Positions 15,344 to 44,490 of a stretch of 64,000 nucleotides of DNA are shown piece after piece. Below the pieces are notes generated by a model. The model ran no database searches, was not told the origin of the DNA, and saw nothing but the letters and a program-made list of their open reading frames with translations. Origin of the DNA: Raja brachyura (Eukaryota); NCBI GenBank assembly GCA_963514005.1, contig OY740798.1, positions 21,142,001-21,206,000 on the forward strand, in the 5' to 3' direction. Each line of letters begins with the position of its first letter. Positions within the stretch are counted from its first letter, which is position 1. Position numbers and translations under genes: made by a program.

Positions 15344-15538
15344 CTTCTTCTTCTCCATGTTGCGCACTTTCTTGTCGATGACATTGAGAACTTGTCTGAG
15401 CGCTTCGTTCTGCGGGTGTGCCGCCTGCCCCTGTCCGATCTGGAGACTCACCGCTGCGGCGGCGGCGGCCTCGGCTCCGACGGCGGAAGAGGATCGGGAT
15501 TCGGCCGCTTTTGTGGCGGTGGCGGTGGCAGCTGGCAT
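15344..15538 (-). CDS. CAPRIN1: Caprin-1 first coding exon, proximal copy (65 codons, MPAATATATK...VIDKKVRNMEKKK)
   Basis: Resembles CAPRIN1 N-terminus (MPSAT...EAMKQILGVIDKKLRNLEKKK). Ends at a GTAAGA donor in phase 0 and joins in frame to 1011-1073. Confidence 0.92.
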
Positions 15539-15835
15539 TTTCGCTCCTTCTCTTTTGCGAGTTTAAATTGATGTTTTGTAATTTTTGTTCCTTTTGTTTT
15601 TCGGGGAAAATGTGCTGTGAAACAAGCGCTGGAGAGGAAAAAGTTCCGACTTTTTGTTGAGATAACGTGGAGAAGCAGCCGGAGCTCTCTCCGCGCGACA
15701 GCACCCGAGACTGAGGGGCGGGAGCACGCAGCGAGCGCGCACTCGCGGCCAAAGCCTCGGCCCAGGACCCCGACGCCCGCCTGCGCCTCCATGCCACAAA
15801 GCGGCCCCCGACCCACCGGCAGCCACCAACTGTGA
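15539..15835 (-). promoter_or_regulatory. CpG-rich 5'UTR/promoter region of proximal CAPRIN1 exon
   Basis: High CpG density and a GC box (GGGGCGGG at about 15715). Homologous to 44055-44345. Confidence 0.6.
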
Positions 15836-18800
15836 ATGCAACGCATTTTTTTGTAATTGTTTTTAAATGCTTGTACAATGGTTGTCTTTATTTAATTGAC
15901 TGGTGTCCGTTGATGAAATGCAGCAAATATTTCAGGCACTTTTCAGGGCACTGGGTACAAACTAAGAACGGAAGAGCCACTAGGGAGCGAGCTCGGCACC
16001 AGGCCCAGCTGCCACAAGTGAAACCCAGAGAAATCAACCAGCACTTTCTCATACCGAAGAGAACTAGATTGCACTTCGAGACAGTTGTACTTTAAAAAAA
16101 AAACCATGTGACATTGGTCGTACAATGTGTGGGTCGGCAGACTTTAAAGAAATCATAGCGCAGAACGCAAGGCGATTTGAATATTTTATTAGGAGTACAA
16201 TCAATTGAAAAATACTTTCAATGTGCATACTTAAAGCTCGCAAATTCCTTTGTCGCATACAAACTCGTCACCAGAAGATGCTTCCAACTGTGCCTCGAAC
16301 TGTTCAATTAGGTCTTACCAATAGGAATATCAACGCCCCGTGATAAAACGAGACCATGTTTTAAGGCCTATGTTGAAGCAGCTTTCCTCCTCTCTTTTTC
16401 CTATCATGTTAAATTGTTAATCTGAAGAGGTAATTGTTCAATCCGTTCCACTGCCCGATCGCAAAAGCCAAATCATAAGATAATTTATAGAATTAACGTT
16501 AAATGTTACTGTTAATCCTATTAAAAATTTAAACATATATATTCAAAAACGAGCATTTAAACGTCATATCTTGTCCAGCAGGAAATAAAAATTTACGGGT
16601 GGTGGAAAGCCGAATTAAAATGGAAATGTTTAAAACAGTTGGGTCAGGCAATTAAGGCTGAACAAAGACTGTTTGAGATGATCAGAAACCATTTTCTGCC
16701 CCACAATTCTGCCATATTTTACTGTTGAATTCAAACATCTATGTTTATGCTGGTCTCTACTCCTAACAACTAAATTTATATGATCGCATTCCAAGTTATT
16801 TGGCTTTAGTCACCACTGCAATGAAAAAAAAGTAATAATTTCCCGTCCCACACTTGGCCATCTCTCAAATGTCCAAACTGCATCCAAACATAAAAAGGAA
16901 TATTGGCTCAATAAAACAATTAGATAATTCAAATAATTGAACAGTAGACCATATATGCGAAAAGGAATTACAGATGCTGGTATATACTGAAGATAAGACA
17001 CAAAGTGCTGTAGTATTTCAGCAGGTCAGGCAGCATCTCTTGAGAAAGATGATGGGTGACGTTTTGGGTCGGGGCCCTTCTTCAGACATGTATTCAGTCC
17101 CTTTCTCTTATCCCTAAATGGAAACAATGATACCCCAATGACAGAAAAGGCTTTTTCAGTTTATTTTAAAGCCTCTTTGGCAAGGAGAATAATTAACTTC
17201 AAATGAACCCTCTTTACAAAATGGAGACATAAGACATGATTGAAAGAAGCAGCATGGGAACAGGTCCACTGAGCCAATGCCCATGGTACCTCACTGACAT
17301 CCACACCCAACACACTAGGGTCAATTGAACAGAGGCCAATTAACCTACAAACCTGTACATCTTTGGGATGTGGGAGGAAACCCACTCGGCCAGAAGGCAA
17401 ACATGCACATTTCATACAAGGTCAAGATTGAACCCGGATGTCTGGCACAAGGAGGCAACAGCTCTACCAACTGCCACTTGAGATAGAGTAACTCAGCAGG
17501 CCAGATAGTATCTGTGGAGGGAAAACGGCAGGTGATATCTTGTATTGTGATCCTTCTTCAAATTCTTTACAAAGTGTTTGGACACAAATGCCTTGTCATT
17601 ACCAACATCTTGTTTCATCACAAACACAAAATATGTCATGACAACACCCCAGTGCCAGAAACTATTCGACTTCACTGACCAAGCAAGACTCCCTCCCCAT
17701 CACTCAAGCCTTGGCTACCATCAATGACCATTAAGCTAACCACCTCCTATTCTGCATTGTTATCTCCACCAGCCCAGTTCAAATCAACAGCAATGGCAGA
17801 AAGTGTCACAAACCACATTAACTATGCTCTTCTCAGACTGAGCCTTGCAAACAATCCAACAATTCCTAGCCAACAGGAGTGTCCATAGAATAGCTGGAAG
17901 TCTACCATAATTGGCAGCTGTAAAGACATTCAGTTTCCATATGAGAAAACATCAGGTCTGGTTGGACCAGATGATCTAGGAGCTAATTAACCACAAACAC
18001 AAAGTGTTCTTGGATTGGAAACTCCATCTCAACTCAAGGGAAAACAAAGCGACCTACAGGCACTGAAGACTGGAGTGCGACAGTAAATCTGTAACAAAGA
18101 ACAGAGAGTGGGCTGGAAGAGCCGAATTTCTGCCTTGGGCATTTGGTTGGCCATGATGATGCTCAAGAATCCACAAGTTATTATCACAATAATCTGCTGG
18201 CCCTCTGCTCCCCACTCTCACTTTTTCTTTAGCTCACAGAGTTTCTGCTGCACCTTGGTCTTTGCGTTCTTTAAAGGAGTCCCTTTTCCCTCAAAGCATG
18301 GTTGACTTTACAATCCAGGATTGCCCACCGTATGCAGTTCATTAGTTTGTGGTTCTCCTGGTCATTCTCATTATGTTGATCGCAGTTCTTTCTGACAGAA
18401 GAGACGAGAGTCACATCCAGGTTCAATTTTGGTGAAACCTAACTGATCACACAGTTCACACATTGTTGACACACTGCTATTCCTGTTGACTGGGAGTTTT
18501 CAGGTTGTTCAGGTCCCTAAGGCGATATTGTTCAAGTTAAATATGTCAAGGAATCATCAAACAATCAAGATATTTGAGATCTAGAATTGTGCAATGCAGC
18601 AAGCTTATGCAGCAAGTAATAATGTTCCTCGTCAGTGGCCTTTCCTACTTTAAATTATGAAAAATAAATACAGTAAAATTCCTATAATCTGACACCCATG
18701 GGACGTTTGGTGTTACCAGAGCAGCAGATGTTCTGGACTATTGGATCCGACTCCTCTTAACACCTAAAACACTTGCATTTCACTATTTTAACATTATACA

Positions 18801-19189
18801 CAGAAATAATAGATTTTTCTAGTGAATCCAGTGAGTTTGAAGGGAGTGGAAAATATATAAACACTGACCCTGGCTCCAACCACATAGCTCACTTGCACTC
18901 AGGTTTGCTGTTGCACCTTCAATGGTCTTCCGTGCTTGTTAATCTGTTTTCCCTTGAAGCGTGATGTGCCCCTGCCTTATGCCAAACCATAATAATATTT
19001 GCATTGTCTTTGTTGGAACTCCAAGGGTGAAAAGCAAAAATAGTATTTACAATCCGAAAGATTCCCAGAGCCTCAGCATGAACACTCCTGCTGTGACCCT
19101 GGAAGCAGCTGAAAAAGTATATCTGGACATTAAAACATTCTAGAAAATTCCACATGAGTAGAAATTGGCACATTAACTGGAAGAGCAGA

Positions 19190-19646
19190 GTTTAGAAATA
19201 TGACAGACATAGCTCACCTTGAAGAAATGAGACTCCGCCTAATAGATAAATATGACCAATTCTTAAGCAGTTGGTCCCCTTTCATCGACTTTTTGGAATC
19301 ATGTGATACAGCAGTACCGTAAAGATTACTGATTTCAGGTCAGGTCGCGGATAGAATTACATCTCTGAACAAAGATTTGAAAATTTTCTTTTTTAAGGGT
19401 CTTTTTCTCCTATTTCTACTTTCTCTTTTTTTTAATAAACACACTTCACGTTTTTCTATTTTCTACTATCTATTTTTCCTCTCTATCTCTTGTCTTTTTT
19501 TTAACTTTTCAAAAACATAAAACTAGAGGTTGTACATAGAATGTATTACGTTATGACATATTATTATTAAAATTAGGTGCCACTGTATTGTTTTGTATTG
19601 TATTAACTTCTAATAAAATAAACAAAAACAAAAAACAAAAAAAAAC
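19190..19646 (+). mobile_element. L1/Tx1-type LINE 3' end
   Basis: ORF2-like C-terminus (MTDIAHLEEMRLRLIDKYDQFLSSWSPFIDFL), T-rich 3'UTR, AATAAA and A-rich tail. Confidence 0.65.
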
Positions 19647-20349
19647 TGGGAGACCCGAACGTATTACCATGAATTAATGACGATTTGCTGTATAAACAGT
19701 CGAGTCAGGGTCATACAGCACAGACTGGGTCCTCAGCCCAATTTGCCCATGCCGCCTAAGATGCCCTAAGATATTCCGATTTGCCTGCGTTTGACCAATA
19801 TCCCACTAAGCCTTTTCTATTTATGAGCCTATCCAAATATCTTTTAAATGTTGTTATTGTGCTTGCCTCAACACTTACCTCTGGCAACATGTCCCCTACA
19901 CCCACCACCCTGTATGCAAAATTTGCCCCTCAGGTTCCCATTAAATCTTTCCCCTCACTAGATATCAATAATAGTTCTCGATTCTGCTACCCTGGGAAAA
20001 AAAGGCTCTGGTCATTCACTCTATCTATTCCCCTCATGATTTTATACATTCCTCTATAAGATCACCCCTCAGCCTCCTGTTGCTCCAAGGAATAAAGTCC
20101 TGATCTGACCAACCTCATACTATAGCTCAGGCCCTCGAGTCCTGGCAACATTCTCATAAACCTTCTCTGCAGCAATTCCAACAATGGCAATCTTCCTATA
20201 GAAGGGTTACCAAGACTGAACACAATGCTCCATATGAAGCTTCACCAACATGGTGTATAACTTTGAACACCGATTTTCCAACATCCTTGGTACCAGAACC
20301 TTTCTGGATTATCCGTTTACCTGAACCAACAGTGGTCACATGATAATGA

Positions 20350-21126
20350 AAAGCCCGCTAATAACACTCCCCCCGTATCTCTAAAGCACCATGACGTGCC
20401 AGAAACTTAAATAAAACAAATATAAAATGTAAACTGAATGTGAATAGAATGGCCTGCTGACCCATTCCCAGCTCCCACCGTCTCCCTGGCCGTTTAGGGA
20501 CCCGGCTTCTGACTCCACTCCCAACTCGCAAGATGCACCAGAGCCCTTCTTCACTCACCGCATGGTTGGTGACATGGCTGTTGTCATGGGTCACATTGTA
20601 GCCCCTGGCGACAGCGCTTTCTTGAGGGTGCCGCCACCGATTAACGCGTTCGGTCACCGTTGGGCTCCTTCCCCTCTCACCTGCTGTCGCTTCCAAGGTG
20701 AAGTATGTCAGCAACTTCGGGGGGGGGGGGGGGGGGGGGGGGGGAGGAGGGGGGGGATGTAGAAAAAGGCCGATTGGACAAAGCTAAGGGAGAAGCAGGC
20801 CATGGCAGTCTTGCGGGAAACAGACAAAGCCAATATCTAGAAACAGCAGCAGGTGAGAGGGGAGGAAGCCCCATGGTGACCAAGCGCGTTAGTTGGTTGT
20901 GGCGGCACGAAGAAAGCACTGTTCCAAAGGGCTATGACATGAGCCACATCAACTACTATGTCAACAGACTGTGCAGTGGGTGAAGAAGGGCTCGCTGTTG
21001 ATCCTTGTGAATCAGGAGTGGTGACTCAACGGTCGGGGAGAGGTTGCGAGCCAGAGATGGGTGGGCAGGTCTATAGGCTATATCCAAAATCCATGAAGGG
21101 GGTCTGTTAAATGAGGGTTTACCGTA
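20350..21126. mobile_element. Old palindromic non-autonomous element (possible Tc1/mariner MITE)
   Basis: Diverged inverted arms at about 20470-20700 and 20835-21065 around a poly-G spacer. The right end reads TACGGTAAACCCTC on the minus strand. Confidence 0.5.
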
Positions 21127-23447
21127 GTGCCTTTGTGAAACAGTTAGGAAAGAAGATTCAGAGCATAATTGAACAGGGATTTCGGGAAGCAGCCCTTTAA
21201 AGGTGCCCAGTAAATTAGAGAAGGCTTGACAGGGAGTTCAGAGTTCCAGAGGGCAACAACAAAATGGTGGGAGATGGGGTTGTTGGGTGCCAGGCAGAGT
21301 AGAAACACAGAAAACTTGTACATTGAGCCAGCCGAGATAGAATTAGACAAGGCCAAGGAGAGATTTCAATATTTAGATGTAAACAAATTACTCTTTCGCG
21401 ACAGAGAAACATGAGCCAAAAGAGCCATCACCACTCGCAATACCATCTACAGCAGTTCAAGGAATTTCAACTGAGCTCGTAACTTTTCTCTGGATTATGG
21501 TGGGGGTGGCAGACCATCAGTTGCCGGAGAAATCGGTGTTCAACCTGTTTGCACTTGTACGCTTTGATCCATCTGCTCCACAACACTCCCCAGGGCCCTA
21601 CAATTCACTGTGATGGTCCTGCCCTGGTCTGACTTCCCAAATTGCAACATCACATTCTTATCAAATTAAACTCCATGAGCCATTCCTCAGCCCATGTGCC
21701 CAGTTGACCAAGATCATGTAATTCTTGATAACCATCTTCAATGTCTATGACACCACCAATCTCAGGGTCATCTGCAAATTTTTAATGAACTTTAAAGCAA
21801 AACTTAATAAAATAAACCCGCAACATTTAGGAATCCCAAAGGTATGCAAGACTATTATTACAAAAGGGACAATAACTTACGAGTCATTCTCCCATATAGA
21901 GCCTCCGCAAGACCACACAATCTTATTTTCCCTAACCAAAGATTTGACTCTCAGAGAATGCAACAAACCAGCATCTAATATCAAAACATCCTTACAAAAA
22001 AAAAATCACAAGGAAGATGCCAAAGATAAAAATTCCAATAAAACACAGAAGGGAAGCTTCTGACAGCCGCCGCTGGGCCGTGCAAGAGCGGACCTGGCGG
22101 CCGACCGAGAACAAGGTCGGACACAACGGCCATTGCAAACATCAGGCAGCAAGCCAAGAACAAGCACGGACCTGGCAACTGATGAGAACAAAGACCTGAT
22201 GGGCCACCAGCTGAGGTACGCCGATTCGCCTCAGCGAAGAAGGGCCTGCTGGGCCGTTGCCTGCGAGGGGAAGCTTGGAAGTCCCGAAGAAAGGAGACTC
22301 ATGGAGGGAGCGCTGGCTAAGGACGCGAGGAGAGGACTAGTAGGTGTGGGACCGGGGTATTGCCTCCAGCCCCTTCAAGGTCGGCTGCAGGCGGCGCCCC
22401 GCGCGACACAGAGGCGGTCTGGCAAGGAGATAGATGTCGGGCGCGGGCCTGCAGCAGCCTGGGTTTTACCTGGGCTTCAAACATGTGGACCGGACTTTGG
22501 ACCTTTTCTTTGTAAACAGCGCCAAAATATGGCAACTGTGCATTTGTGGGTTGTGCAAAATAATTTCACTGCGGTGCATACGTGACAATAAAGAACCATT
22601 AAAACCCTGTCTGTCTGGTGACATGTGGTTTGATAATCCAATGTTTTTGAAACATATTTTAACAGATACAAGATACATTTATTTGTCACGTGTGCCAATT
22701 GGCACAGTGAAATGAAATTAACATGTATCATTTGAATATTTTAAACATTACAGCTATGATAAAAAGTTATAATTACAAATCTGACAAACTTGTACAAAGC
22801 CTCACACATACAGGATTCTGAAATGATACCATTTTCTCTGTCCAACCTCACCTTGTATATTGATCATACAATCATACCTCATCCAATATATGAACATTTC
22901 CAGGTTAAATGTCATTCCCCTTTGTAATTTTAAAACTAGTTACCATAATGATATGAAGCTATATCTTTGTCCAATGTTAAATTATACACATTAATTTTTC
23001 AAAATAAATTAATTGTTCTATAATGTACCAACAAATACAAGGTAACTGTGGAAAGACCCATACTGCTATAAAGACGTCTGGTCTGTTGTCCAATCTCCAA
23101 GAAGCAGTTAAAACCCATTTATATTCAAAAGTTCCCATCATTATAAAAACTAATTCAATTAGTACAAAAAAAGCAATTAGGGTATCTCATATTAATATTT
23201 GGGTAGCCAATACCAAGTACTAAACCAACAAAAACAATTATTTAATGAAAGTTGTAAAGTTTTCACATTTGTAAATTTCCAGATGACTTCACAAAATGTA
23301 GAAGCTGAAGTACATGTGAAAATAATTCAATTTTAATACTATTTATTCTTGGTTACATCTACCATTAATCTTGTTAATTAAACATTGCTATTATTTCCGT
23401 CCTGTATTCAAGGTCTTTTTTCCCCCAATGAAGATCAAGGCAGTTAA

Positions 23448-26400: not shown

Positions 26401-27190
26401 CCACTGACATCTCCCGTGCTCTCCCCTCACAATTTTACATACTCCAACCAACACGTACTAATACACCTGCCTCAATCCATCTATTCAGCACCGATTGCCT
26501 TCTCAACGCCCCCCCCCCCCATCTATCCACCCCGGACTGATTCACACCCCCTGACCCTATTGTGCTTCATGGTCTTCAGAGGGAACATTGATTATGTTTG
26601 ATAACGGAATGTAATCAAATGTGTTTTAATTCCCAATGTTATTATTTGTTTTGACACCTTTAAAGATATTACCAAAAGAACATTTGCTGCAGTTATGTCC
26701 TTTGGCCATCTCTTGTCAGTTAGTGTCATGTTTAACCTGTCAGATGGGTATAGTCGGTTTTAACAGCTATTATCATAAAATACCTTTAGAAATTTCTTTG
26801 CAACCTGTATATTTTGTTATGGATAAATTATGTGGGAAGCCAGAGTTTTTCTGTACCTATAGCAATAACGACCCATGCGATGGCCATGTCATGGTAATTT
26901 TCTGTCCTTCACAGAAAACATGCTTGCATCAATCTGTAGTGTGTATGGTTAAGCATATATGTTACCATGGTCCAGGATTTATTGACACAGGTTGATCATA
27001 TGCTGAATAATCCAACTACATTTTTGTTTGGAAGTGGAAAGAACTAATAGAAGTTGCATTCATTGCAATGTGTAAAAAGAGTTGAGATATTGTATTATAA
27101 TTTTGCTGCATGTCATTGTGGTATATATCATGTCTTGATTGGTGAATGTTTAGTTTGTGAGTTATTTGAAGCAGAAATAATATGTGAATG

Positions 27191-30199: not shown

Positions 30200-32150
30200 A
30201 TATAACCATATAACATATAACTATATAACAATTACAGCACGGAAACAGGCAATCTCGGCCCTTCAAGTCCGTGCCGAACAACTTTTTTCCCTTAGTCCCA
30301 CCTGCCTGCACTCATACCATAACCCTCCATACCCTTCTCATCCATATGCCTATCCAATTTATTTTTAAATGATACCAACGAACCTGCCGCCACCACTTCC
30401 ACTGGAAGCTCATTCCACACCGCTACCACTCTCTGAGTAAAGAAGTTCCCCCTCATGTTACCCCTAAACTTCTGTCCCTTAATTCTAAAGTCATGTCCTC
30501 TTGTTTGAATCTTCCCTATTCTCAAAGGGAAAAGCTTGCCCACATCAACTCTGTCTATCCCTCTCATCATTTTAAAGACCTCTATCAAGTCCCCCCTTAA
30601 CCTTCTGCGCTCCAGAGAATAAAGACCTAACTTATTCAACCTATCTCTGTAACTTAGCTGTTGTAACCCAGGCAACATTCTAGCAAATCTCCTCTGTACC
30701 CTCTCTATTTTGTTGATATCCTTCCTGTAATTGGGCGACCAAAATTGTACACCATACTCCAGATTTGGTCTCACCAATGCCTTGTACAATTTTAACATTA
30801 CATCCCAGCTTCTATACTCAATGCTCTGATTTATAAAGGCTAGCATACCAAAAGCTTTCTTTACCACCCTATCTATATGAGATTCCACCTTCAAGGAACT
30901 ATGCACGGTTATTCCCAGATCCCTCTGTTCAACTGTATTCTTCAATTCCCTACCATTTACCATGTACGTCCTATTTTCATTTGTCCTGCCAAGGTGTAGC
31001 ACCTCACATTTATCAGCATTAAACTCCATCTGCCATCTTTCAGCCCATTTTTCCAACTGGCCTAAATCACTCTGTAGACTTTGGAAATCCTCTTCATTAT
31101 CCACAACACCCCCTATCTTGGTATCATCTGCACACTTACTAATCCAATTTACCACCCCTTCATCCAGATCATTGATGTACATGACAAACAACAAAGGACC
31201 CAACACAGATCCCTGAGGCACCCCACTAGTCACCTGCCTCCAACCCGACAAGCAGCCATCCACCATTACCCTCTGGCTTCTCCCATTCAGCCACTGTTGA
31301 ATACATCTTGCTATTCCTGCATTTATACCCAACAGTTGAACCTTCTTAACCAACCTTCCATGAGGAACCTTGTAAAAGGCCTTACTAAAGTCCATATAGA
31401 CAACATCCACTGCTTTACCCTCGTCAATTTCCCTAGTAACCTCTTCAAAAAATTCAAGAAGATTAGTCAAACATGACCTTCCAGGCATAAATCCATGTTG
31501 ACTGTTCCTAATTGGACCCCGTTTATCCAGATGCTTATATATATTATCTCGAAGTATCTTTTCCATTAATTTGCCCACCACTGAAGTCAAACTAACCGGT
31601 CTATAATTGCTAGGTTTACTCTTAGAACCCTTTTTAAACAATGGAACAACATGCACAGTACGCCAATCCTCGGGGACTATTCCCGTTTCTAATGACATTT
31701 GAAATATTTCTGTTATAGCCCCGGCTATTTCTACACTAACTTCCCTCAATGTCCTAGGGAATATCCTGTCAGGACCTGGAGACTTATCCACTTTTATATT
31801 TTTCAAAAGTGTCAGTACTTCTTTTACTTTGAAACTCATAGTATCCATAGCTACTCTACTAGTTTCCCTTACCTCACATAATTCAATATCCTTCTCCTTG
31901 GTGAATACCAAAGAAAAGAAATTGTTCAATATCTCCCCCATCTCTTTTGGCTCTGCAGATAGCTGTCCACTCGGTCACTCCAATGGACCAATTTTATCCC
32001 TTGTTATCCTTTTGCTATTAATATAGCTGTAGAAACCCTTTGGATTTACTTTCACCTTACTTGCCAAAGCAACCTCATATCTTCTTTTAGCTTTTCTAAT
32101 TTCTTTCTTAAGATTCTTTTTACATTCCTTATACTCAAGCACCTCATTTT
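30200..32150 (-). mobile_element. Young 5'-truncated CR1 LINE
   Basis: Uninterrupted RT ORF and a 3' microsatellite tail (TATGGTTA-like) at about 30200-30230. Confidence 0.92.
30292..31941 (-). CDS. CR1 ORF2 reverse transcriptase region (549 aa, no endonuclease; TE-derived)
   Basis: Motifs KSPGPD, YRPVSL, QHGF, DFSKAF, GVPQGSVLGPLLF and CADD (FADD variant). Confidence 0.85.
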   Translation of the reverse strand: MGEILNNFFSLVFTKEKDIELCEVRETSRVAMDTMSFKVKEVLTLLKNIKVDKSPGPDRIFPRTLREVSVEIAGAITEIFQMSLETGIVPEDWRTVHVVPLFKKGSKSKPSNYRPVSLTSVVGKLMEKILRDNIYKHLDKRGPIRNSQHGFMPGRSCLTNLLEFFEEVTREIDEGKAVDVVYMDFSKAFYKVPHGRLVKKVQLLGINAGIARCIQQWLNGRSQRVMVDGCLSGWRQVTSGVPQGSVLGPLLFVMYINDLDEGVVNWISKCADDTKIGGVVDNEEDFQSLQSDLGQLEKWAERWQMEFNADKCEVLHLGRTNENRTYMVNGRELKNTVEQRDLGITVHSSLKVESHIDRVVKKAFGMLAFINQSIEYRSWDVMLKLYKALVRPNLEYGVQFWSPNYRKDINKIERVQRRFARMLPGLQQLSYRDRLNKLGLYSLERRRLRGDLIEVFKMMRGIDRVDVGKLFPLRIGKIQTRGHDFRIKGQKFRGNMRGNFFTQRVVAVWNELPVEVVAAGSLVSFKNKLDRHMDEKGMEGYGMSAGRWD

Positions 32151-32953: not shown

Positions 32954-35388
32954 CAGGGCTCGAAATTAACGGTTGCCCGGGTGCCAATGGCCATCTAAAG
33001 TCCCGCCAGACAACCTAAAAGCAGTGTCATTTTGCCCGGCTGGGCACTGCAGATACTGGTTTATACCGAAAATAGACACAAAAAACTGGAGTAACTCAGC
33101 GGGTCAGGCAGCATCTCTGGAGAAAAGGAATGTGACGTTTCGTGTCGGTGGTGGCTGTAGTGCGGGGGGCAAAGATACTAGGTGCAGAGTGACGGAGGGT
33201 CGGAGCGAATGACGGGCCCCACGCAGCAGCGGCTCCACCTCCCGCTCCCTGCCCGCCCAGATAGCGGCCACTGTGTGCCACTCCGCCTACGGTGATAACC
33301 GTTTTCAAAACAAACCCTCCCGCACGCCGAGGCCAGGAGGAAGGGAGAGAGTGGCCCCCTTCTGCCGACTGAAGCAAATGCACCACTTGGCCCCTCACTT
33401 TCCTGTTGGCTGGCAGATGAGGGGAGGCGATGGCGAGGAGATCCCAACTGCCTCCCCCTTTGGCAGCAGCATTTGGCGGTGGACAGGGACGGCCAAGGCA
33501 GCGGGGCGATGTTGCCGGTGATGTCCGAGGAGCGCTGGCTGATCTTCCTTCCTCCCTCTCTCTCTCTCTCTCTTGTACGCCCCCCCCTCCAGCCCCCTTA
33601 TCCTGGGTCCCCTCCTCTCCATTCCGCACTGATCCCCATTCCCACCTCTATTCAGTCCCCACTGATATCCCCTGTGCTCCCGTCCCCATCTACCACCCCC
33701 CTCCCCCCCATCTATTCATCCTGTACTGATCTCCCCCCCCATTCATCCCGTACTAACCCCCCCTCCATTTATCCTGAACCTATCCTACCATCCATCCTGT
33801 AGTGATCTCCCCAATCATCTTTTACTGATCACCATTCATCCTGTACTGATCCCCTCATTCATCCTGCACTGATCTCCCGATCCATCCTGTACTGATCCCC
33901 CATCCATCCTGTAGTGAACCTCCCATTCATCCTGTAGTGAGCCAACCATTCATCCTGCACGGACCCCTCGGTCCACATTGTACTGACCCCCTCCTCATTC
34001 ATCCTGTACTGGTTCCCCCCATTCATCCTGCGCTGATCCCCTCACATCCATCCTGTACTGATTCCCCCATTCAAGAAGAATGGGGGTATCAGTCTGAAGA
34101 AGGGTCTCGACCCGAAACATTGCCTATTTCCTTCGCTCCATAGATGCTGCCTCACCCACTGAGTTTCTCCAGCATATTTGTCTACTCCCATTCATCCTGT
34201 ACTGAGCCACCCATTCATCCTGCACTGATCCTCCCCCCCATCCATCCTGTACTTACTCCCCCATTCTTCCTGCAGTGATCATCCCATTCATCCTGCACTG
34301 ATCCTCCCCCCCCATTCTTCCCGTACTGATCCCCCCATCCATCCCGTACTGAACCCCCCCCATCCATCCCATACTGATCCCCCCCCCCATTCAACTCCCA
34401 CTGACATCCCCCGTGCTCTTCCCTCACAATTATACCTACTCCAACCAACATGCACTAATTCCCCTGCCTCAATCCATCCATTCCGCACCGATAGCGTTTA
34501 TCAATAATTTTTTTTTAATCTGGTGCGTACAAACTGGGTATCTTCATTGCTGTTCACAACACATACATCTAATCTGAATGTCCGGTAATGTGGCGTTTTG
34601 ACACCTTTAAACGTATTGCCAAAAGAACATTTGCTACAGTTATGTCCTTTGGCCATCTCTTGTCAGTTAGTGTAATGTTTAACCTGTCAGATGGGTATAG
34701 TCGGTTTTAACAGCTATTATCATAAAATGCCTTTAGAAATTTCCTTGCAACCTGTATATTTTGTTGTGGATAAATTATGTGGGAAGCGAGAGTGCTTGTG
34801 TACCAATAGCAACAATGACCCATGCTATGGCCATGTCATGATAATATTCGGTCATTCACAGAAAACATGCTTGCATCAATCTGTAGTGTGCATGGTTATG
34901 CATATATGTTACCATGGTCCAGGATTTATTGACACAGGTTGATCATACGCTGAATAATCCAATCACATCTTTGTTTGGAAGTGGAAAGAAATAATATAAA
35001 TTGCATGAATTGCAATGTATAAAAAGAGTTGAGATGCTGTATTATAATTTTGCTGCATGTCATTGTGGTGTATATCATGTCTTGATTGGTGAATACGTTT
35101 AGTTTGTGTCTTTATTTGAAGCAGAAATAATATGTGAATGCTTCAATTAGCATAATTCCGACTGGTAACTACGCACTTCGTCCGAGCACATTATCGCACA
35201 CGTCATGCAAGCCTTTTTTTTATTTTAATTTTTAATTTTTGTTAGAAGTACAGTAGTGTGGTACTTGAGTACCCAATACATACATACAAGCCGTCTTAAA
35301 TGACCACCTAAACTGTCATTTGGCAAACTAAAAAGCTGCCTAGATTGCCCAGCTGGCATCAGGGAAAAAAAGGTAAGTGAGAGCCCTG
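32954..35388 (+). mobile_element. Non-autonomous DNA transposon (hAT-like, 5-bp TSD), copy 2
   Basis: Ends CAGGGCTC...GAGCCCTG, TSD GATAT. Inserted into a CR1 3' end. Confidence 0.85.
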
Positions 35389-35597: not shown

Positions 35598-37300
35598 ATG
35601 GGGAACAAGGACATGGCAGACCAATTGAATAACTACTTTGGTTCTGTCTTCACTAAGGAATGAATAAATAATCTGCCGGAAATAGCAGGGGACCGGGGGT
35701 CAAATGAGATGGAGGAACCGAGTGAAATCCAGGTTAGCCGGGAAGTGGTGTTAGGTAAGTTGAATGGATTAATGGCCGATAAATCCCCAGGACCAGATAG
35801 GCTGCATCCCAGAGTACTTAAGGAAGTAGCCCCAGAAATAGTGGATGCATTAATGATAATTTTTCAAAACTCTTTAGATTCTGGAGTAGTTCTTGAGGAT
35901 TGGAGGGTAGCTAATGTAACCCCACTTTTTAAAAAGGAAGTGAGAGAGAAAACGGGGAATTACAGACCAGTTAGTCTAACATCAGTAGTGGGGAAACTGC
36001 TAGTCAGTTATTAAAGATGGGATAGCAGCACATTTGGAAAGTGGTGAAAACACTTGGAAAGTGGTGAAATCATTGGACAAAGTCAGCATGGATTTACGAA
36101 AGGTAAATCATGTCTGATGAATCTTATAGAATTCTTCGAGGATGTAACTAGTAGGAGAAGCAGTGGATGTGTTATATCTGGACTTTCAGAAGGCTTTCCA
36201 CAAGGTCCCACATAAGAGATTAGTGTACAAACTTAAAGCACATGGTATTGGGGGTTCAGTATTGATGTGGATAGAGAACTGGCTGGCAGAAAGGAAGCAA
36301 AGAGTAGGAGTAAACGTGTCCTTTTCAGAATGGCAGGCAATGATTAGTGGGGTACCACAAGGCTCAGTGCTGGGACCCCAGCTATTTACAATATATATTA
36401 ATGATTTGGACGAGGGAATTGAATGCAAATCATCTCCAAGTTTGCGGATGACATAAAGCTGGTGCGCAGTGTTAGCTGTGAGGAGGATGCTAGGAGGCTT
36501 CAAGGTGATTTGGATAGGCTGGGTTAGTGGGCATGGCAGATGCAGTATAATGTGGATAAATGTGAGGTTATGCACGTTGGTGGCAAAAACAGGAAAGTGG
36601 ACTATTATCTGAATGGTGGCTGATTAGGAAAAGGGGAGATGCAACGAGACCTGGGTGTCATGGTACACCAGTCATTGAAAGTAGGCATGCAGGTGCAGCA
36701 GGCAGTGATGAAAGCGAATGGTATGTTAGCATTCATAGCAAAAGGATTTGAGTATAGGAGCAGGGAGGTTCTACTGTAGTTGTACAGGGTCTTGGTGAGA
36801 CCACACCTGGAGTATTGCATACAGTTTTGTTCTCCAAATCTGAGGAAAGACATTCTTGCATAGAGGGAGTACAGAGAAGGTTCACCAGACTGATTCCTGG
36901 GATGTCAGGACTTTCATATGAAGAAAGACTGGATAGACTCGGCTTGTACTCGCTAGAATTTAGAAGATTGAGGGGGTAATCTTATAGAAACTTACAAAAT
37001 TCTTAAGGGGTTAGACAGGCTAGATGCAGGAAGATTGTTCCCGATGTTGAGAAGAACAAGCGGTCACAGTTTAAGGATAAGGGGGAAATCTTTTAGGACC
37101 GAGATGAGAAAAACATTTTTCACACAGAGAGTGGTGAGTCTCAGGAATTCTCTGCCACAGAAGGTAGTTGAGGCCAGTTCATTGGCTATATTTAAGAGGG
37201 AGATAGATGTGGCCCTTGTGGCTAGAGGGATTAGGGGGTATGGAGGGACCGAGTTGGATGATCAGCCATAATCATATTGAATGGCGGTGCAGGCTCGAAT
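35598..37300 (+). mobile_element. CR1 LINE, 5'-truncated and frameshifted
   Basis: Motifs KSPGPDRLHPRVLKE, LDFQKAF, GVPQGSVLGP and a CR1 3' UTR. Confidence 0.9.
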
Positions 37301-37439
37301 ATTAATATTAATGTAGGCAGCTAGGATTAGTATAGATCGGCCTGATGATCAACACCGTCTTGGTGGGCTAAAGGGTCTGCTCATAGGCAGTACAACTATG
37401 ACTCAACAGTGAACATTTAAATGTTCAGACATATGCAAC

Positions 37440-38605
37440 ACCACAGTCACATCTGTGGAGTATTTTAAGTTCATGGAAACCATCATCTCCAAGGTCTTTA
37501 AATGGGGGGCTCCCATCGACTCCACAGTCAAAAAAGGCACAGAGGATGTACTTCCTGCAGCAGCTGAGGAAGCACAATCTGCCACAGGCAACGATGGTCC
37601 AATTCTATACGACCATCGTCGAGTATGTCCTCACCTTCTTCATCATGGTCTGGTTTGGCTCAGCCACCAAACATGACATCAGGAGCAGTGCTTCCACACC
37701 TCAAAAAATGGAATTACAAATTACCTGGAATTTGATGGTATTTCCCGGCCGGGTAAGCCTTCCCCAACTGCACATGCGCGATTGCAGCCCCAATTGCGCA
37801 AGCGCGGATACCGGGCCCACTGCGCATGCGTGGGGAGTCGGCATCCTTATCACATCACCGGTGCCATTTTCAGTTGTGACGTGGTTGATGGGCCTCCCCC
37901 ACTGCGCAGGCGCGGATTGTCGTAAGTATACGGGTACATATTTTTTTCTGCAAATCATCCTGCGGGCCTGATTGGAGCCTTTGGCGTCTCCCCGCGCGTG
38001 CGCAGTGGGCCCGGATTCCGCGCGTGCGCAGTTTGGGCGGTAGTCACACATTTGCAGTTGGGGAAGGTTTACCGGGCCAGGAAATTTCCCAAAATTATTT
38101 CATTTCCCTAAAATTACCCGAAGACAACCAGAATTTCCCGAATTTCAGGTTTCCTTCAAAGTTGAAACACTGATCCGGAGGCTGCAGCGAATCGTCCGAT
38201 CAGCCGAGAAGGTTATTGGCTGCAACCTTCCCTCCAGTGACGAACTGTACACTGCAAGGGTCAGGAAGCGAGCGGATAAGATCATCTCTTACCCCCCTCA
38301 CCACAAACTCTTTGAATCACTTCCCTCTGGAAGGTGACTCCGGACTGTCAAAGCTGCCACAGCCAGACATAAAAAGGGCTTTTTTCCCCACGAGTAGCTG
38401 CTCTACTCAATAACCAAAAATCTGTAGCCTCCTTTTGCTCTGGTATTTTATTTAATTCACATGTTTAATCAAGAATGTTTTATTATTAATTTTTTAAGTT
38501 TTATGTGTCATTCCTAACAGTCACTGTATGTCATGTTTTCACTTGCGGGGGGAGCATCAAGGCGAATTCCTTGTATGTGAAAACGTGGCCAATAAACGTA
38601 TTCAT
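37440..38605 (+). mobile_element. Rex-Babar LINE 3' fragment interrupted by a hAT MITE
   Basis: MYFLQQLRKHNLPQATMVQFY...WFGSATKHDI resumes as RRLQRIVRSAEKVIG after 38172. Confidence 0.75.
37686..38172. mobile_element. hAT-family MITE with long internal inverted repeat
   Basis: TIR CAGTGCTTCCAC / GTTGAAACACTG and 8-bp TSD ATCAGGAG/ATCCGGAG. Inverted arms at about 37740-37845 and 37980-38085. Confidence 0.8.
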
Positions 38606-40396
38606 TAATTCAAAATAAAATCCTACTTGAGAGATTCTGAAAGACTATCATTGCCCACTGAGCTTCTTCATATCTGAGAGGTTGTGCTGCATATTTGATG
38701 GCCAAGGTGGAGAGAACTTTAAATTCTATACAAACCTAAAATCTGTGATTCAAAATTAAGGCCTACATAACATTATTCCAAATGCTCACAGAGACAGAAG
38801 CAACTGCAGATGCTGGAGATTCCAAATGTTCAATTGAGTGCAAACACCTGATGCTGCAAAACACCTATTGGTAGTGTAGCAGCTATTATTTTTCAATGGC
38901 TTGCTCGCACCATGTCTATAAACACCACAACAGGTCCCTACACCTCCTCCCTCACCATCACCCACGGACCCCAATAACCTTTACACATGCACCTCTTCAA
39001 ACCTCATCTAGTGCATTTGGTGCTCCAGATGAGCCCCCCTTTACATCAGCAAGACCGAGATAGACTAAGCAATCATTTCGCCAAACATCTGCCGTCTATC
39101 CACCATTGCTACTGGATCTCTCAGTTGTTAACCATTTGAACACACTTTCCCATTCCCATACTGATCTTTCTGTCCTCTTCTTTCCATATCTGACACCCTA
39201 TTGTCTGCTTTTTAAATCGCTAACCGTTGTCACTTTCCCCACCCATCTGCCAATTAGCCCCCCTCACCTATCGCTCGCTCGTCCCACCTCTTCCAGCCCC
39301 CCCCCCCCACTACAATCAATCTGAAGGGTCATGATCCAAAAAGTCCTTGTCCATTCCCTCCACATATGCTGCCTGAGCAGCGAAGTTCCTCCAACACTGT
39401 GTTTTGCTTAAGATTCCAGGATCTGCAGTTCCTTGTACTTCCAATCAATAAAAATACAAGTGCAACAAAATATTATCAACGTTAACAAAGAGATGGAATC
39501 GAGGCTAATTTGGGATGTTAAGTGAAGAATTTCATAACCAACATCATACTAACCATCTGTATAGAAAGGAACTGCAGCTGCTAGTTTACACTGAAAATAG
39601 ACACAAAATACTGGAGTAACGCAGTGGGACAGGCTTTGTGGAGAGAAGGAATGGGTGACGTTTCAGGTCTCGACCTATGTCTATCTTGTGTCTAATATAC
39701 TTTCAGAGTGTAGTTAATGTTTTCTTAAAAGCTAATGGAGCAGTAAATTGGCATACTGCTAAATTCTACAAACAGTAAGGAGATAAAAGACCGCATTATC
39801 CTCCATAAGTGGTCCAGAGGTAAACATTGGCCAGTGCGCCAAAATTCAACTGCTTTCTTTAAATAAAACCAATGGATCTGGTACCCACCCAGACCAAACA
39901 AAGTCTTAGTTAACATTTTATTGGTTTCTGGTGAGCAAAAAAAAAAGTGCTGGAGGAATTCTGTGAGTTAGGAAGTATCTGTGGTGGGAATGGATGGACA
40001 ATGTTTGGGTCAGAACCCATCATCTGACATGGCGAAGGGCAGAGCAAGCTGGAACAGAAGAGGTGTGCATGGGGAAAATAATAAGTGGATATAGGTGTGT
40101 GGTGACAATTTCAGATGGGTGGAGATGGTAACAAAGGCAAGAAGTGAAAAGGGAGCCAAAGTGCAGCAAATAAGGAAAGAAGAGTTGAAGCCGGGAGGCA
40201 TATGGGTAAAACAGAGGAGAGGAAAGAGGGATGGGATAAAAAATAATGAGGGACTCAGAGAGGGGCAGAACGAAGAGGGGAAAAGAGCAAAATGATCAAC
40301 ATGATGGAAGGGAATGGATTATATCTTGAAATTGGAGAATTCAATTTTCATACTATTGGGTTGTAGCTACCTAAACGGAATACGAGATGCTGTTGT

Positions 40397-41062
40397 ATGA
40401 CAGCAAATGGTATGTTAGCATTCATAGCGAAAGGATTTGAGTATAGGAGCAGGGAGGTTCTACTGCAGTTGTACAGGGTTTTGGTGAGGCCACACCTGGA
40501 GTACTGCGTACAGTTTTGGTCTCCAAATCTGAGGAAAGACATCCTTGCCATAGAGGGGGTACAGAGAAGATTCACCAGACTGATTCCTGGGATGTCAGGA
40601 CTTTCATATGAGGAAAGATTGGATAGACTCGGTTTGTACTCGATGGAATTTAGAAGATTGAGGGGGGATCTTATAGAAACCTACAAAATTCTTAAGGGGT
40701 TGGACAAGCTAGATGCTGGAAGATTGTTCCCAATGTTGGGGGAGTCCAGAACAAGGGGTCACAGTCTAAGGATAAGGGGGAATTCCTTTAGGACCGAAAT
40801 GAGGAAAACATTCTTTACACAGAGAGTGGTGAGTCTCTGGAATTCTCTGCCACAGAAGGTAGTTGAGGCCAGTTCATTGGCTATATTTAAGAGGGCGTTA
40901 GATGTGGCACTTGTGGCTAAAGGGATCAGGGGGTATGGAGAGAAGGCAGGTACGGGATACTGAGTTGGATGATCAGCCATGATCACATTGAATGGCGGTG
41001 CAGGCTCGAAGGGCCGAATGGCCTACTCCTGCACCTATTTTCTATGTTTCTATGTTTCTATG
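40397..41062 (+). mobile_element. CR1 LINE 3' fragment with (TTTCTATG)n tail, inserted in a Penelope remnant
   Basis: ORF 40397-40963 matches the CR1 C-terminus. Confidence 0.9.
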
Positions 41063-41146
41063 TTCTTCCAGTTTAAATGTGGCCTCACTTTGAAAGTGGC
41101 GGAAGGTTGGTATGGGAAAGCGTGTAAAAATGGTTAGAAACACAGA

Positions 41147-41617
41147 CATAGAAAATAGGAGCAGGAGTAGGCCATTCGGCCCTTCGATCCTGCACCGCCA
41201 TTCAATATGATCATGGCTGATCATCCAACTCAGTATCCCTTACCTGCCTTCTCTCCATACCCCCTGATCCCTTTAGCCACGTCTAACTCCCTTTTAAATA
41301 TAGCCAATGAACTGGCCTCAACTACCTTCTGTGGCAGAGAATTCCAGAGACTCACCACTCTCTGTGTGAAAAGTGTTTTTCTCATCTCGGTCCTAAAAGA
41401 TTTCCCCCTTATCCTTAAACTGTGACCGCTTGTTCTGGTCTTCCCCAACATCGGGAACAATCTTCCTGCATCTAGCCTGTCCAACCCCTTAAGAATTTTG
41501 TAAGTTTCTATAAGATCCCCCCTCAATCTTCTAAATTATAGAAAGTACAAGCCGAGTCTATCCAGTCTTTCTTCATATGAAAGTCCTGACATCCCAGGAA
41601 TCACTCTGGTGAACCTG
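41147..41617 (-). mobile_element. CR1 LINE 3' fragment, inverted relative to 40397-41062
   Basis: ORF 41230-41526 is nearly identical in protein to the plus-strand copy. Confidence 0.9.
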
Positions 41618-41619
41618 TA

Positions 41620-43235
41620 GGTTAGCTGCTCCAGCTCCACCAAACGCATCTCTAAATAATTTGATGCTATTTCATCCTCCCCTTGTCCTGTCACTTCCCA
41701 CCTACACCCGAGACTCCTCATATGCTCTGCATCACTTCAATTCCTTGGCCGCCATTGCTCATTTTTACCGTGGATATCCAGTCCCTTTAGACCTCCATTT
41801 TCCATTATGAAGACCTCTGGGCCCTCCTGTTCTACCTAGAACAGAGATCCAACAGTTCTACTCAACTAATGGAACTTACCCTCGCACTTAACAATTTTTT
41901 CTCTTTTGATACCTCTCACATTTTTCAAATCAAACGTGCAGCAATGGGTACTTGCATGCTACGCCTGAATTTCCTTGTTTATGTTGAACACTCCTAGTTC
42001 CAAATGTACCCCGGCACCTTTCTCTGCTACATCAACAATTGTATTGTGGTGGTCTCCTGCACCTGTTTTACTCCTAGTCAGTACACTTAATTTCTCTGAC
42101 ACTTCGCCCTCCTTTCTCGACCTCAGTAACCATCACAGGGGACAGACCAACTACAGATGTTTGTGGATGGAGCCCGCACCTGTGCCTCCTATGTTTTGCG
42201 CAGTTCTGTTCTTGCTCCCCCTCCCCTAGACAGAACAAGGATAAAGTTACCCTGGCCTGTATGAGAGCCTTCACATCCAACACATCATTCTCTGACATTT
42301 CGCCATCTTCAATGTGATCCCATCACCAGTCACATCCTCCTGGCCCCAACCCTTTTGAACTTTCTCTAGGGACCACTCTCTCCAAAACTCCTTGGTTTGC
42401 TCATCCCTTTCCACCCAAACCACCGCTGACCACGTTCCCTTGCAACCGTAGGTTGGTATTATACCTGTCCTTCCATGTGAGACAGGGGTTCATTTGCACT
42501 TATTCCACTCGCCTTATGTATTCAGTGCTCCCGGCATCCTCCTCTGCATTGGTGAGAACAAGTGTAGATTAGGCGACCATTTCAAAGGACACTTGCATCT
42601 GTCTGCTGGAGAAGCTGTTGCTGTCTGTTGTTGGGAGCTCCCGTTTGCTAACCATTTTAACTCCCCTTTATATTCCAATCTTTCTGCCCCTTCCACTGAC
42701 AAGAGTGAGACCACACACAAACTGAAAGAACACCTCATGTTCCATTTGGGTAGCCTGAAACCCAACCAAACAAACATGGAATTCTACAACGCCATGTGAT
42801 AAGGCCCAACATCCTCCCTTCCCCATTCCTTCACGCATACATTTCTGCCATATGCTGGTTACCTAGCTCCTTTCCCCTCCTCCATAGGCTCCTCCCCACC
42901 CTCCCATCCCCGATTTCACTTTTACCCATCTCTATCTCTCCATCCTGATATCCTTCCCAACTTTACATTTCACTCCTCCCCTTATCTGACACCACTTTGT
43001 CTCCTTTTCACCTCCAGCCTTTGTCACTATCGCCCACCCATTTGTCAATCCTATCACCTCACCTGTGCCCACCAATCACTTGCCAGTCTTTCACATCTCT
43101 TTTCCAGTTTCCGTCCCGTCAACAGTCTGAAGAGAAGTCTGACCTGAAATGTTGTCTGTTCATACACTCCATAGATACTGCATGCCCTGTCGAGTTCCTC
43201 CTGTTATTTGCTCAAGATTCCAGCAACTGCAGTTG
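41620..43235 (+). mobile_element. Degraded Penelope-like element (RT and GIY-YIG remnants)
   Basis: RT motif FQIKRAAMGTCM at about 41925 and CIGENKCRLGDHF...HLMFHLGSLKP. Confidence 0.7.
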
Positions 43236-43862
43236 CTTACGTCTTTGGTTTCTGATATGGTTTTTTTCTCTCAGTATTGTACTGATCATATCCTCAAGTA
43301 GTGAAACAGGGCATGAATCCACATTTTTATTTTACTGAGACATTTTATGCTGAACAGTTTCCCTCCTCACAAAGCATGAAAATCACTCAAAGGCTGAACA
43401 TGGAGGCACAGAAGTGATAACACAGCATTTTAATATTCAAAATATTTTGTTTACCATAACATTAGCTGAGAAATGCTTGCCAGTTTATTATTCTAAAACC
43501 ATATTTTATCGTTGTACTTCTAATTAGAAAGCATAAATAACATCTTAAAGAAAAACAAATTACCCAGCGCAGGAGGTATAGATCTCAATTTGAATAAATG
43601 ACCTGAAAAGGACACCAAAGCCACCAGGCGCATGTTAGCTACCACGATGCAGTCGACTTCCATTTCATTTCCATATCAGTTACTCCACACGCCACCCCTC
43701 CCCCACTCGCCGTAACCACCTCAGACTGCAAAGGAGGTTCTCTTCTAGAGTAGACACATCCACTCCAGGGTTGATAGCAAGGCCTTCCGCATGTCTATGT
43801 TTAGCAAATGGCAGCTGGCAGGTAGCCATCCCCCACACCCTCGCTCCCCAAGTCTCTCTTAC

Positions 43863-44054
43863 CTTCTTCTTCTCCATGTTGCGCACTTTCTTGTCGATGA
43901 CATTGAGAACCTGCCTGAGCGCCTCATTCTGCGGGTGTGCCGCCTGCCCCTGTCCGACCTGGAGACTCACAGCTGCGGCGGCGGCGGCGGCCTCGGCCCC
44001 GGCGGCGGAAGAGGATCGGGATTCGGCCGCTTTTGTGGCGGTGGCTGCTGGCAT
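43863..44054 (-). CDS. CAPRIN1: Caprin-1 first coding exon, distal duplicate copy (64 codons)
   Basis: Near-identical peptide to 15344-15538, with intact ATG and GTAAGA phase-0 donor. Whether it is used is unverified. Confidence 0.8.
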
Positions 44055-44490
44055 TTTCGCTCCTTCTCTTTACGAGTTGGGATTGATTTTTTTTTTTGTT
44101 TGAAAAATGGTGTGAAACAATAAGGGAAAGGAAACGGGCTCGGGGAGGGGCACAAAAAAGTCCCTACTTTTGTTGAAAGGAACAAAATGGGAAGAGAGGC
44201 GAGCGGAGCTCTCTCGGCGCGACAGCACCCGAGTCTGAAGAACGGGGGCGCGCATTCGCAGCCCCGACCCAGGACCAGCGGGCCCGCCCGCCTGCCTGCG
44301 CCGCGCCTCCATCCCGCAAAGCAGCTCCCGAGCCACCGACAACTGCCAATCTCAAAAATACTGTTTATTTATTTCTTCACTAGAAATACCGTCTTTCATT
44401 TTTAAAAACATAAAAAAAATTCGGATTAGGAAAGATCTGCGCGGCACGTCGGAGGACAGCAAAGGCAAGTGGCGCGTGCGCTCTGCAGTG
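44055..44490 (-). promoter_or_regulatory. CpG-rich 5'UTR/promoter region of distal CAPRIN1 exon
   Basis: CpG rich. Shares blocks with the proximal copy (GGAGCTCTCT..GCGACAGCACCCGAG, CCCAGGACC, GCGCCTCCAT). NRF1-like GCGCGTGCGC at about 44472. Confidence 0.55.

What the first reader, a model, noticed from the sequence alone, without database searches (positions are those of the whole stretch)
15344..44345. Duplicated CAPRIN1 promoter plus ATG exon 28.5 kb apart, both apparently conserved
Seen: two copies of the first coding exon, each with ATG, a GTAAGAGAG donor and a homologous CpG-rich upstream region. I found no second copy of the next exon between them. By hand the exons differ by about 7 synonymous and 2 conservative non-synonymous changes (V/A, I/V) and two in-frame indels (6 bp in the Thr-Ala repeat, 3 bp in poly-Ala). 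The 5' region is much more diverged and the introns are unalignable after 9 nt. Inference: both copies are under purifying selection and act as alternative first exons from separate promoters. This could be tissue- or germline-specific control of a stress-granule RNA-binding protein.
Basis: partly seen in the sequence, partly recalled or inferred. Interest (0 to 1): 0.75.

Follow-up and report, generated by a model that had tools for sequence, protein, structure and literature searches.

The report
Twin CAPRIN1 promoters in cartilaginous fishes
This skate-like genome carries two intact copies of the start of the stress-granule gene CAPRIN1 (start codon exon plus likely promoter), 28.5 kb apart, which likely both splice onto one shared gene body; the arrangement is probably old in cartilaginous fishes, and the two copies may have been kept alike by gene conversion.

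Summary
Two minus-strand copies of the CAPRIN1 ATG exon (44054-43863, 15538-15344) differ by 7 synonymous and 2 non-synonymous changes and 2 in-frame indels (dN/dS 0.08, p 0.001). They share only about 500 bp (CpG-rich upstream block, initiator-like site, 5' UTR, exon, donor). The genome has two copies and one next exon.

In related species, transcript-like contigs cover the distal exon, stop at its donor and continue into the shared exon 2. RefSeq models of two other skates carry both N-termini on one body. So do Mobula birostris and the chimaera Callorhinchus milii. Within each lineage the two copies share lineage-specific residues, while their flanks here are unalignable. This points to an old duplication homogenised by gene conversion (about 55%) or to repeated duplication.

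Use of the proximal copy is only indirectly supported. Tissue or germline specificity is untested. The architecture is a known kind (UGT1/GCNT2/PCDH variable first exons), and both isoforms are already annotated in relatives. My paper searches found no description for CAPRIN1. The scan noted similar duplicated first exons in other genes, not this one.

The parts
44240..44349 (-). Distal promoter-like conserved block, CpG-rich, no TATA match
   Evidence: 75% of aligned columns match the proximal block, 0 of 200 shuffles as high; CpG o/e 0.98 over 43863-44345; motif scan
44232..44238 (-). Initiator-like heptamer, likely distal transcription start (A at 44236)
   Evidence: Matches the YYANWYY consensus (consensus recalled); contigs of two coded organisms align up to 44233 (contig ends are a weak hint only)
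44055..44236 (-). Distal 5' UTR, contiguous with the ATG exon (no intron)
   Evidence: One contig of run X1 lies colinearly over 43862-44233 with 9 other letters and 3 gap letters
43863..44054 (-). Distal first coding exon, 64 codons, phase 0 end
   Evidence: identical to the N-terminus of RefSeq caprin-1 isoforms of Rhinoraja and Amblyraja
43854..43862 (-). Distal splice donor; intron to exon 2 is 42,789 nt
   Evidence: contig cover drops to zero in the intron bins and loose ends read exon 2 in X1, X8, X13
15716..15829 (-). Proximal promoter-like conserved block, CpG-rich, no TATA match
15708..15714 (-). Initiator-like heptamer at the homologous place (A at 15712), predicted proximal transcription start
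   Evidence: start not observed directly
15539..15712 (-). Predicted proximal 5' UTR: conserved ends, diverged middle (60-68% to the distal copy)
   Evidence: both anchors of a two-part contig in run X13 are present here (33 of 35 and 36 of 37 letters)
15344..15538 (-). Proximal first coding exon, 65 codons, phase 0 end
   Evidence: carries the Val at codon 20 that marks the second isoform type in Leucoraja X6 and Amblyraja X2/X6/X7
15335..15343 (-). Proximal splice donor; intron to exon 2 is 14,270 nt
1011..1073 (-). Shared second exon (21 codons); the rest of the single CAPRIN1 body continues about 70 kb beyond the window start
   Evidence: body at G000:C18:21143073 down to 21072189

Best explanation
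The window holds two intact copies of a roughly 500-bp CAPRIN1 start cassette (CpG-rich upstream block, 5' UTR, ATG exon, donor) ahead of a single gene body, and they likely act as alternative promoters whose first exons each splice to the same exon 2. Shown: two copies, one body, equal phase, purifying selection, and distal-exon-to-exon-2 contigs in related species. Inferred: the proximal copy is also used, from RefSeq models of other skates and an indirect contig. Transcripts from the distal start would skip the proximal exon because no acceptor-like site (pyrimidine tract plus AG) was found just upstream of it. The two proteins differ only in the Ala-rich stretch ahead of the Pfam dimerisation domain, so the main effect is likely regulatory: two promoters, two 5' UTRs and first introns of 14 vs 43 kb feeding nearly the same protein. 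Because the 5' UTR and ATG share one exon here, promoter and coding start form one small unit that survives duplication. The duplication is likely older than the skate radiation, possibly as old as cartilaginous fishes, with the coding parts periodically homogenised by gene conversion (about 0.55 for this last step).
For: dN/dS 0.084, p 0.001. Two copies genome-wide; one exon 2 in 334 kb; one body. In 4 of 4 runs laid, a 2.1-2.2 kb contig ends its alignment at 43862 with zero depth in the intron. In 3 of these 4 the listed loose end matches exon 2 at 29 of 30 letters; X5's was not among the rows shown. Three of the four contigs extend into the distal 5' UTR (X1 to 44233, X13 to 44159, X8 to 44097). 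X13 also holds a contig that fits only the two ends of the distal UTR, with non-canonical ends, and both anchors exist in the proximal UTR. Two N-terminal types on one body occur in 4 of 12 cartilaginous fish species for which two or more models were seen: Amblyraja, Leucoraja, Mobula birostris, Callorhinchus milii. The 5' extension of Leucoraja X5 closely matches the translation of this window's distal UTR. Lineage-shared characters: Val/Ile in both skate copies where both Mobula copies have Ala; Pro plus a shorter linker in both C. milii copies. The two C. milii copies and the five skate rows each form a side of the best tree (75/88 and 79/90, unstarred), and 3 of 4 cross-lineage groupings are rejected at p-AU 0.011-0.035. 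Paralogous UTR middle is 60-68% alike, against about 95% for the distal UTR between species.
Against: No RNA from the window's own organism; all runs are contigs marked 'RNA?'. The last 48 coding nt are identical in the two copies, so a contig can join either arm to the body and is not single-molecule proof. Proximal transcripts were not observed directly. RefSeq X-isoforms are predicted models, and I saw only their proteins, not their loci or read support. 8 of 12 species with two or more models show one N-terminal type, and only 15 of 45 members of the largest cluster were listed. The trees rest on 67 columns, no relevant branch is starred, and one cross-lineage grouping is not rejected (p-AU 0.085); the larger tree leaves these rows unresolved. 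No conversion tract was shown at DNA level. Synonymous sites of this exon look constrained between species (1 change in two comparisons; not significant against the UTR, p 0.21), so the low dS alone does not need conversion.
Confidence: 0.8

Rival explanations
1. Same alternative-first-exon function, but separate duplications in skates, mobulids and chimaeras rather than one old duplication with gene conversion. The compact cassette would be duplicated and kept repeatedly.
For: Copies group by lineage at protein level, which this predicts directly; 8 of 12 multi-model species, mostly sharks, show only one type.
Against: Needs two or three independent gains of the same unit. Flanks are at chance level and the UTR middle is 60-68% alike, against about 95% between species, which argues for an age well beyond the skate radiation (inference, organisms coded so no clock). 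Identical copies would be invisible at protein level, and a Chiloscyllium plagiosum model hints at a second identical copy.
Confidence: 0.35
2. The two promoters are strictly partitioned by tissue or germline versus soma.
For: Long retention of both copies with diverged UTR middles suggests non-identical regulation; variable first exons elsewhere are tissue-regulated (PMC1885805, passages read).
Against: Both blocks are CpG-rich with no TATA match; the distal type is in contigs of 4 of 4 runs from 4 studies, and one run seems to hold both types. No tissue labels were available.
Confidence: 0.2
3. Only the distal copy is a working first exon; the proximal one is a relic or an enhancer-like element kept similar by constraint or conversion.
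For: The long body contig carries the distal type in all 4 runs laid, which were picked with the distal stretch; the proximal copy holds both amino-acid changes and the 6-bp insertion relative to other batoids.
Against: Open frame, intact donor and initiator-like site, only in-frame indels, dN/dS 0.084; the proximal type is annotated on the full body in Leucoraja and Amblyraja; probable proximal-type UTR contig in X13.
Confidence: 0.08
4. Assembly artefact (two haplotypes placed in tandem) or the remnant of a second gene.
For: None found.
Against: Only about 500 bp are shared, at 76%; no N in 334 kb; both types recur in other skate assemblies; no second body, and LMO2 lies on the other strand about 83 kb beyond the distal exon.
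Confidence: 0.01

Closest known systems
Variable-first-exon genes: vertebrate UGT1, GCNT2 and clustered protocadherins (PMC1885805, passages read)
   Same: Tandem homologous first coding exons, each behind its own promoter, spliced to one set of constant exons; conserved upstream motif; gene conversion among copies is reported there for Pcdh.
   Different: Only two copies; a short exon (64-65 codons) outside any Pfam domain; copies nearly identical in protein, so no diversification of specificity; host gene is an RNA-binding protein rather than an enzyme or adhesion family.
N-terminal tandem duplicated exon substitutions in human genes (40 of 236 events; PMC9741552, passages read)
   Same: Mutually exclusive homologous 5' coding exons, often old, with conservative changes, often in disordered or coiled-coil regions.
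   Different: The main text of that paper has no occurrence of 'caprin' or 'gene conversion' (supplements not read). Here copies group by lineage rather than by position.
RefSeq caprin-1/caprin-1b isoform sets of Leucoraja erinacea, Amblyraja radiata, Mobula birostris, Callorhinchus milii
   Same: Two N-terminal exon types on one CAPRIN1 body; the skate types match this window's two copies.
   Different: Automatic annotation only, with no description of the duplication; this window's proximal copy has an extra Thr-Ala and an Ile not seen in the other two skates.
Bony-vertebrate CAPRIN1
   Same: Same first-coding-exon boundary and neighbourhood (LMO2 divergent upstream: here; human arrangement recalled).
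   Different: No pair of homologous N-termini among the coelacanth, gar, bowfin, caecilian and frog models printed (small sample). A separate non-coding exon 1 in human is recalled, not tested.

Membership tests
CAPRIN1 (caprin-1) | Body with Caprin-1_dimer (PF18293) and Caprin-1_C (PF12287) | tested here: met
   Skate caprin-1 proteins map exon by exon downstream at high identity; PF12287 hits at C18:21093154-21111319; both domains in P0029 and P0005
CAPRIN1 (caprin-1) | Best homologs named caprin-1; LMO2 as divergent neighbour | tested here: met
   15 of 17 hits named caprin-1, caprin-1b or cell cycle associated protein 1b, 1 unnamed, 1 rhombotin-2; LMO2 on the + strand at C18:21269117-21271763
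Variable first exons / N-terminal tandem duplicated exon substitution | Two or more homologous first coding exons in tandem, same strand and phase, upstream of one set of constant exons | tested here: met
Variable first exons / N-terminal tandem duplicated exon substitution | Each exon has its own promoter or transcription start | tested here: inconclusive
   Homologous CpG-rich blocks and initiator-like sites in both; contig ends near the distal site only; no CAGE or ATAC data
Variable first exons / N-terminal tandem duplicated exon substitution | Each exon is spliced to the constant exons in mRNA | tested here: inconclusive
   Distal: contigs in related organisms. Proximal: RefSeq models of relatives and an indirect contig only. 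Nothing from the own organism
Variable first exons / N-terminal tandem duplicated exon substitution | Tissue- or cell-specific promoter choice | not testable with these tools
   Runs carry no tissue labels and are kept as contigs
Concertedly evolving duplicates (gene conversion) | Copies at orthologous positions across species, yet more alike within than between species, with DNA-level conversion tracts | tested here: inconclusive
   Within-lineage grouping at protein level; positions and DNA of other species not available

The most novel reading that the evidence does not exclude
A two-copy promoter-plus-start-exon cassette of CAPRIN1 arose before chimaeras and elasmobranchs split (roughly 400 million years ago, date recalled). 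It has been kept ever since, with gene conversion across about 28 kb of repeat-filled intron homogenising the coding exon while the promoters and 5' UTR middles drift apart. That would be concerted evolution that holds the protein constant and lets only regulation diverge, in a single-copy gene. In bamboo shark an inverted copy may even face LMO2.
Probability: 0.45. Interest if true: 0.6.

Novelty: new member of a known kind. Interest (0 to 1): 0.4.

Why it matters
The architecture is known, but usually serves to diversify proteins. Here two near-identical start exons seem to be kept in skates, a devil ray and a chimaera, which would make CAPRIN1 a clean case of promoter duplication kept for regulation alone. 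If the copies are orthologous across cartilaginous fishes, it is a simple two-copy system for measuring long-range gene conversion over deep time, testable with existing genomes. In practice, short-read quantification and annotation of CAPRIN1 in these fishes must treat two starts, and at least one shark LMO2 model appears to have captured this exon.

Tried and rejected
Long tandem duplication with surviving flanks: rejected. Other same-diagonal hits are multi-copy repeats.
Third or decayed copies of the exon, or a second exon 2: none in 334 kb or genome-wide.
Distal exon serving LMO2 in this genome: rejected, opposite strand.
Hidden 132-nt intron in the distal 5' UTR (joint in X13): rejected as a splice, since the ends are not GT-AG on either strand; better read as the other copy's UTR.
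Upstream ATGs: the in-frame ones at 44312 and 44255 lie before the initiator-like site and end at a stop before the main ATG; not pursued.
Run search: no RNA holder listed on record; 18 of 24 rows are guessed RNA.
Short-protein search for exon read-through tags gave 1 hit among 33 candidates. The metagenome scan gave 0 confirmed of 611 stretches.
The 28-row tree left the relevant rows unresolved; the 15-row tree dropped 13 rows (3 bony-fish outgroups, 2 identical rows, 8 other single-type rows) for the AU tests. The rate contrast between UTR and synonymous sites was not significant. The atlas search with the chimeric LMO2 model listed only LIM-protein clusters.
Paper searches: CAPRIN1 + 'alternative first exon' 2 papers; passages of PMC8844073 read and concern CtBP2, the other seen as listing only. 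caprin1 + chondrichthyan 0. caprin with elasmobranch/skate/shark terms: 15 of 1,318 listed, none on this gene by title. Searches gave nothing specific (listings only).
Full report
Observation. The proximal exon encodes 65 and the distal 64 residues from ATG to a phase-0 donor. A self-comparison of the window gives one block joining them, 15335-15829 against 43854-44349, 76% over 521 columns. Over 63 aligned codons there are 7 synonymous and 2 non-synonymous differences and two in-frame indels; dS 0.168, dN 0.014, ratio 0.084, Fisher p 0.001. The last 48 coding bases and 9 intron bases are identical. Both copies have CpG o/e near 1.0 against 0.44 for the window. Inside the block, the upstream part, both UTR ends and the UTR middle each beat 200 of 200 shuffles; the 150 bases on either side of the block do not align convincingly (12 and 95 of 200 shuffles as high). 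Other hits on similar diagonals are repeats.

Gene context. The window is G000:C18:21142001-21206000. The genome holds 2 matches to this exon by DNA and by protein. Skate caprin-1 proteins map as one series of exons from window 1073 down to C18:21072189, with PF12287 hits there (5 of 8 genome matches; the other 3 lie on C20 and C29). In 334 kb without N there is one exon 2 and one exon 3. LMO2 lies on the opposite strand at C18:21269117-21271763, so neither copy can serve it here. The distal peptide is identical to RefSeq N-termini of Rhinoraja and Amblyraja, so the organism is skate-like (inference).

Transcript evidence. The run search listed 24 holders, none on record as RNA and 18 guessed RNA. 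I laid 4 of them on 43600-44700. Each has a contig of 2.06-2.25 kb whose alignment ends at 43862, with zero depth in the intron bins. For X1, X8 and X13 the loose end matches exon 2 at 29 of 30 letters; the X5 loose end was not among the rows shown. Contigs reach into the distal 5' UTR up to 44233 (X1), 44159 plus a second contig to 44233 (X13), and 44097 (X8). An initiator-like heptamer sits at 44236 and at the homologous place 15712 (consensus recalled). So in relatives the distal exon is transcribed as a first exon with its UTR and continues into exon 2. Caveats: these are contigs of other organisms, and the shared 48-nt exon end lets an assembler join either arm to the body. X13 also holds a contig fitting 44035-44071 and 44204-44238 (edges read from the depth bins) but not between, with ends that are not a canonical intron. 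Both anchors exist in the proximal copy 124 nt apart (33 of 35 and 36 of 37 letters), so I read it as a proximal-type UTR in the same run (inference). Direct read evidence on the proximal copy is lacking, which leaves its use in mRNA indirect.

Other species. From homolog and cluster look-ups I printed N-termini for 19 cartilaginous fish species. The skate types match this window's copies: Ala versus Val at the marker codon, and the Leucoraja X5 extension closely matches the translation of the distal UTR. The other 8 show one type, but identical copies would not show, and only 15 of 45 members of the largest cluster were listed. A Chiloscyllium plagiosum model named rhombotin-2 starts with the same 67 residues as that species' caprin-1b X2 and then runs into LIM domains. 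This hints at a second, inverted copy or a model error. The bony-vertebrate models printed show no such pair (small sample). These are predicted models; I saw neither their loci nor their read support.

Age and homogenisation. Both skate copies have Val/Ile where both Mobula copies and most sharks have Ala; both C. milii copies share Pro residues and a shorter linker. In a 15-row tree the C. milii pair and the five skate rows each form one side of a branch (75/88, 79/90, unstarred). Forcing the skate proximal type with one C. milii copy or with either Mobula copy is rejected (p-AU 0.011, 0.035, 0.034), but not with the other C. milii copy (0.085). With 67 columns and several tests this is weak. 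Against a young duplication: flanks at chance level, and a UTR middle of 60-68% identity against about 95% for the distal UTR between species (9 differences in 179 nt in X1). One old duplication with occasional conversion of the coding exon fits all this with fewest events; I put it at about 0.55 for an origin before the skate lineage, against 0.35 for repeated duplications. No conversion tract was demonstrated.

How it likely works. Each cassette would start transcription at its own CpG-rich, TATA-less promoter and splice its donor to the acceptor at 1073, across 42,789 or 14,270 nt. No pyrimidine-tract acceptor was found within about 200 nt upstream of either UTR, so the proximal exon would be skipped in distal transcripts. 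The protein differences fall before the dimerisation domain, which starts at residue 122-124, so the products are likely near-equivalent and the gain is regulatory: output, UTR-dependent translation or timing. Tissue or germline partitioning is possible but has no support here.

Comparison and novelty. The design is that of variable-first-exon genes (UGT1, GCNT2, PCDH; PMC1885805, passages read, which also report conversion among Pcdh exons and little in Ugt1) and of N-terminal tandem exon substitutions (40 of 236 human events; PMC9741552, passages read, no 'caprin' in the main text, supplements not read). Searches for CAPRIN1 with alternative first exon, chondrichthyan or elasmobranch terms found no description; the library lacks most subscription papers. 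Both isoform types are already in automatic annotation of relatives. Earlier scan notes list duplicated first exons in three other genes and nothing for CAPRIN1 or look-alike stretches. Verdict: real, new member of a known kind, interest 0.4; the deep-time concerted-evolution reading would merit about 0.6.

Noticed in passing
protein P0011 (XP_043562333.1, Chiloscyllium plagiosum): A RefSeq 'rhombotin-2' (LMO2) model begins with the complete CAPRIN1 first-exon peptide, identical to that species' caprin-1b X2, followed by an unrelated linker and LIM domains. Since LMO2 is divergent from CAPRIN1 in G000, this suggests an inverted second copy of the exon, a scaffolding inversion or a model error.
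   Followed up: partly
proteins P0031 (Scyliorhinus torazame X4) and P0061 (Narcine bancroftii X2): Isoforms that lack the usual N-terminus: one starts at the internal Met near the end of exon 1, the other with Met joined directly to exon 2. Either could reflect a second, degenerate first exon.
   Followed up: no
proteins P0033/P0036 (Heterodontus francisci): Their 5'-extended N-terminus reads, in part, like a translation of the conserved 5' UTR block around the initiator-like site, so that UTR element seems conserved in sharks as well (judged by eye).
   Followed up: no
proteins P0168, P0170, P0122, P0060 (coelacanth, gar, bowfin, zebra shark): Each protein has two RefSeq accessions, i.e. two transcripts with the same protein; these could differ in their 5' ends, hinting at alternative CAPRIN1 starts more widely.
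   Followed up: no
window 30292-31974 (-): 560-codon open frame with a reverse transcriptase domain (PF00078, E 2e-30), a retroelement between the two copies.
   Followed up: partly
window 47501-48418 (+): 305-codon stop-to-stop frame with no Pfam match; probably repeat-derived, not checked.
   Followed up: partly
window 26648-27190 and 34595-35140: 546-bp direct repeat at 93% identity, each next to a GC-rich stretch; probably two copies of a young mobile element.
   Followed up: no
G000:C20:34340253-34340709 (+) and C29:3575685-3576059 (+): Further Caprin-1_C matches: the C20 pair is probably the paralog CAPRIN2 (inference); the C29 match has a stop inside.
   Followed up: no
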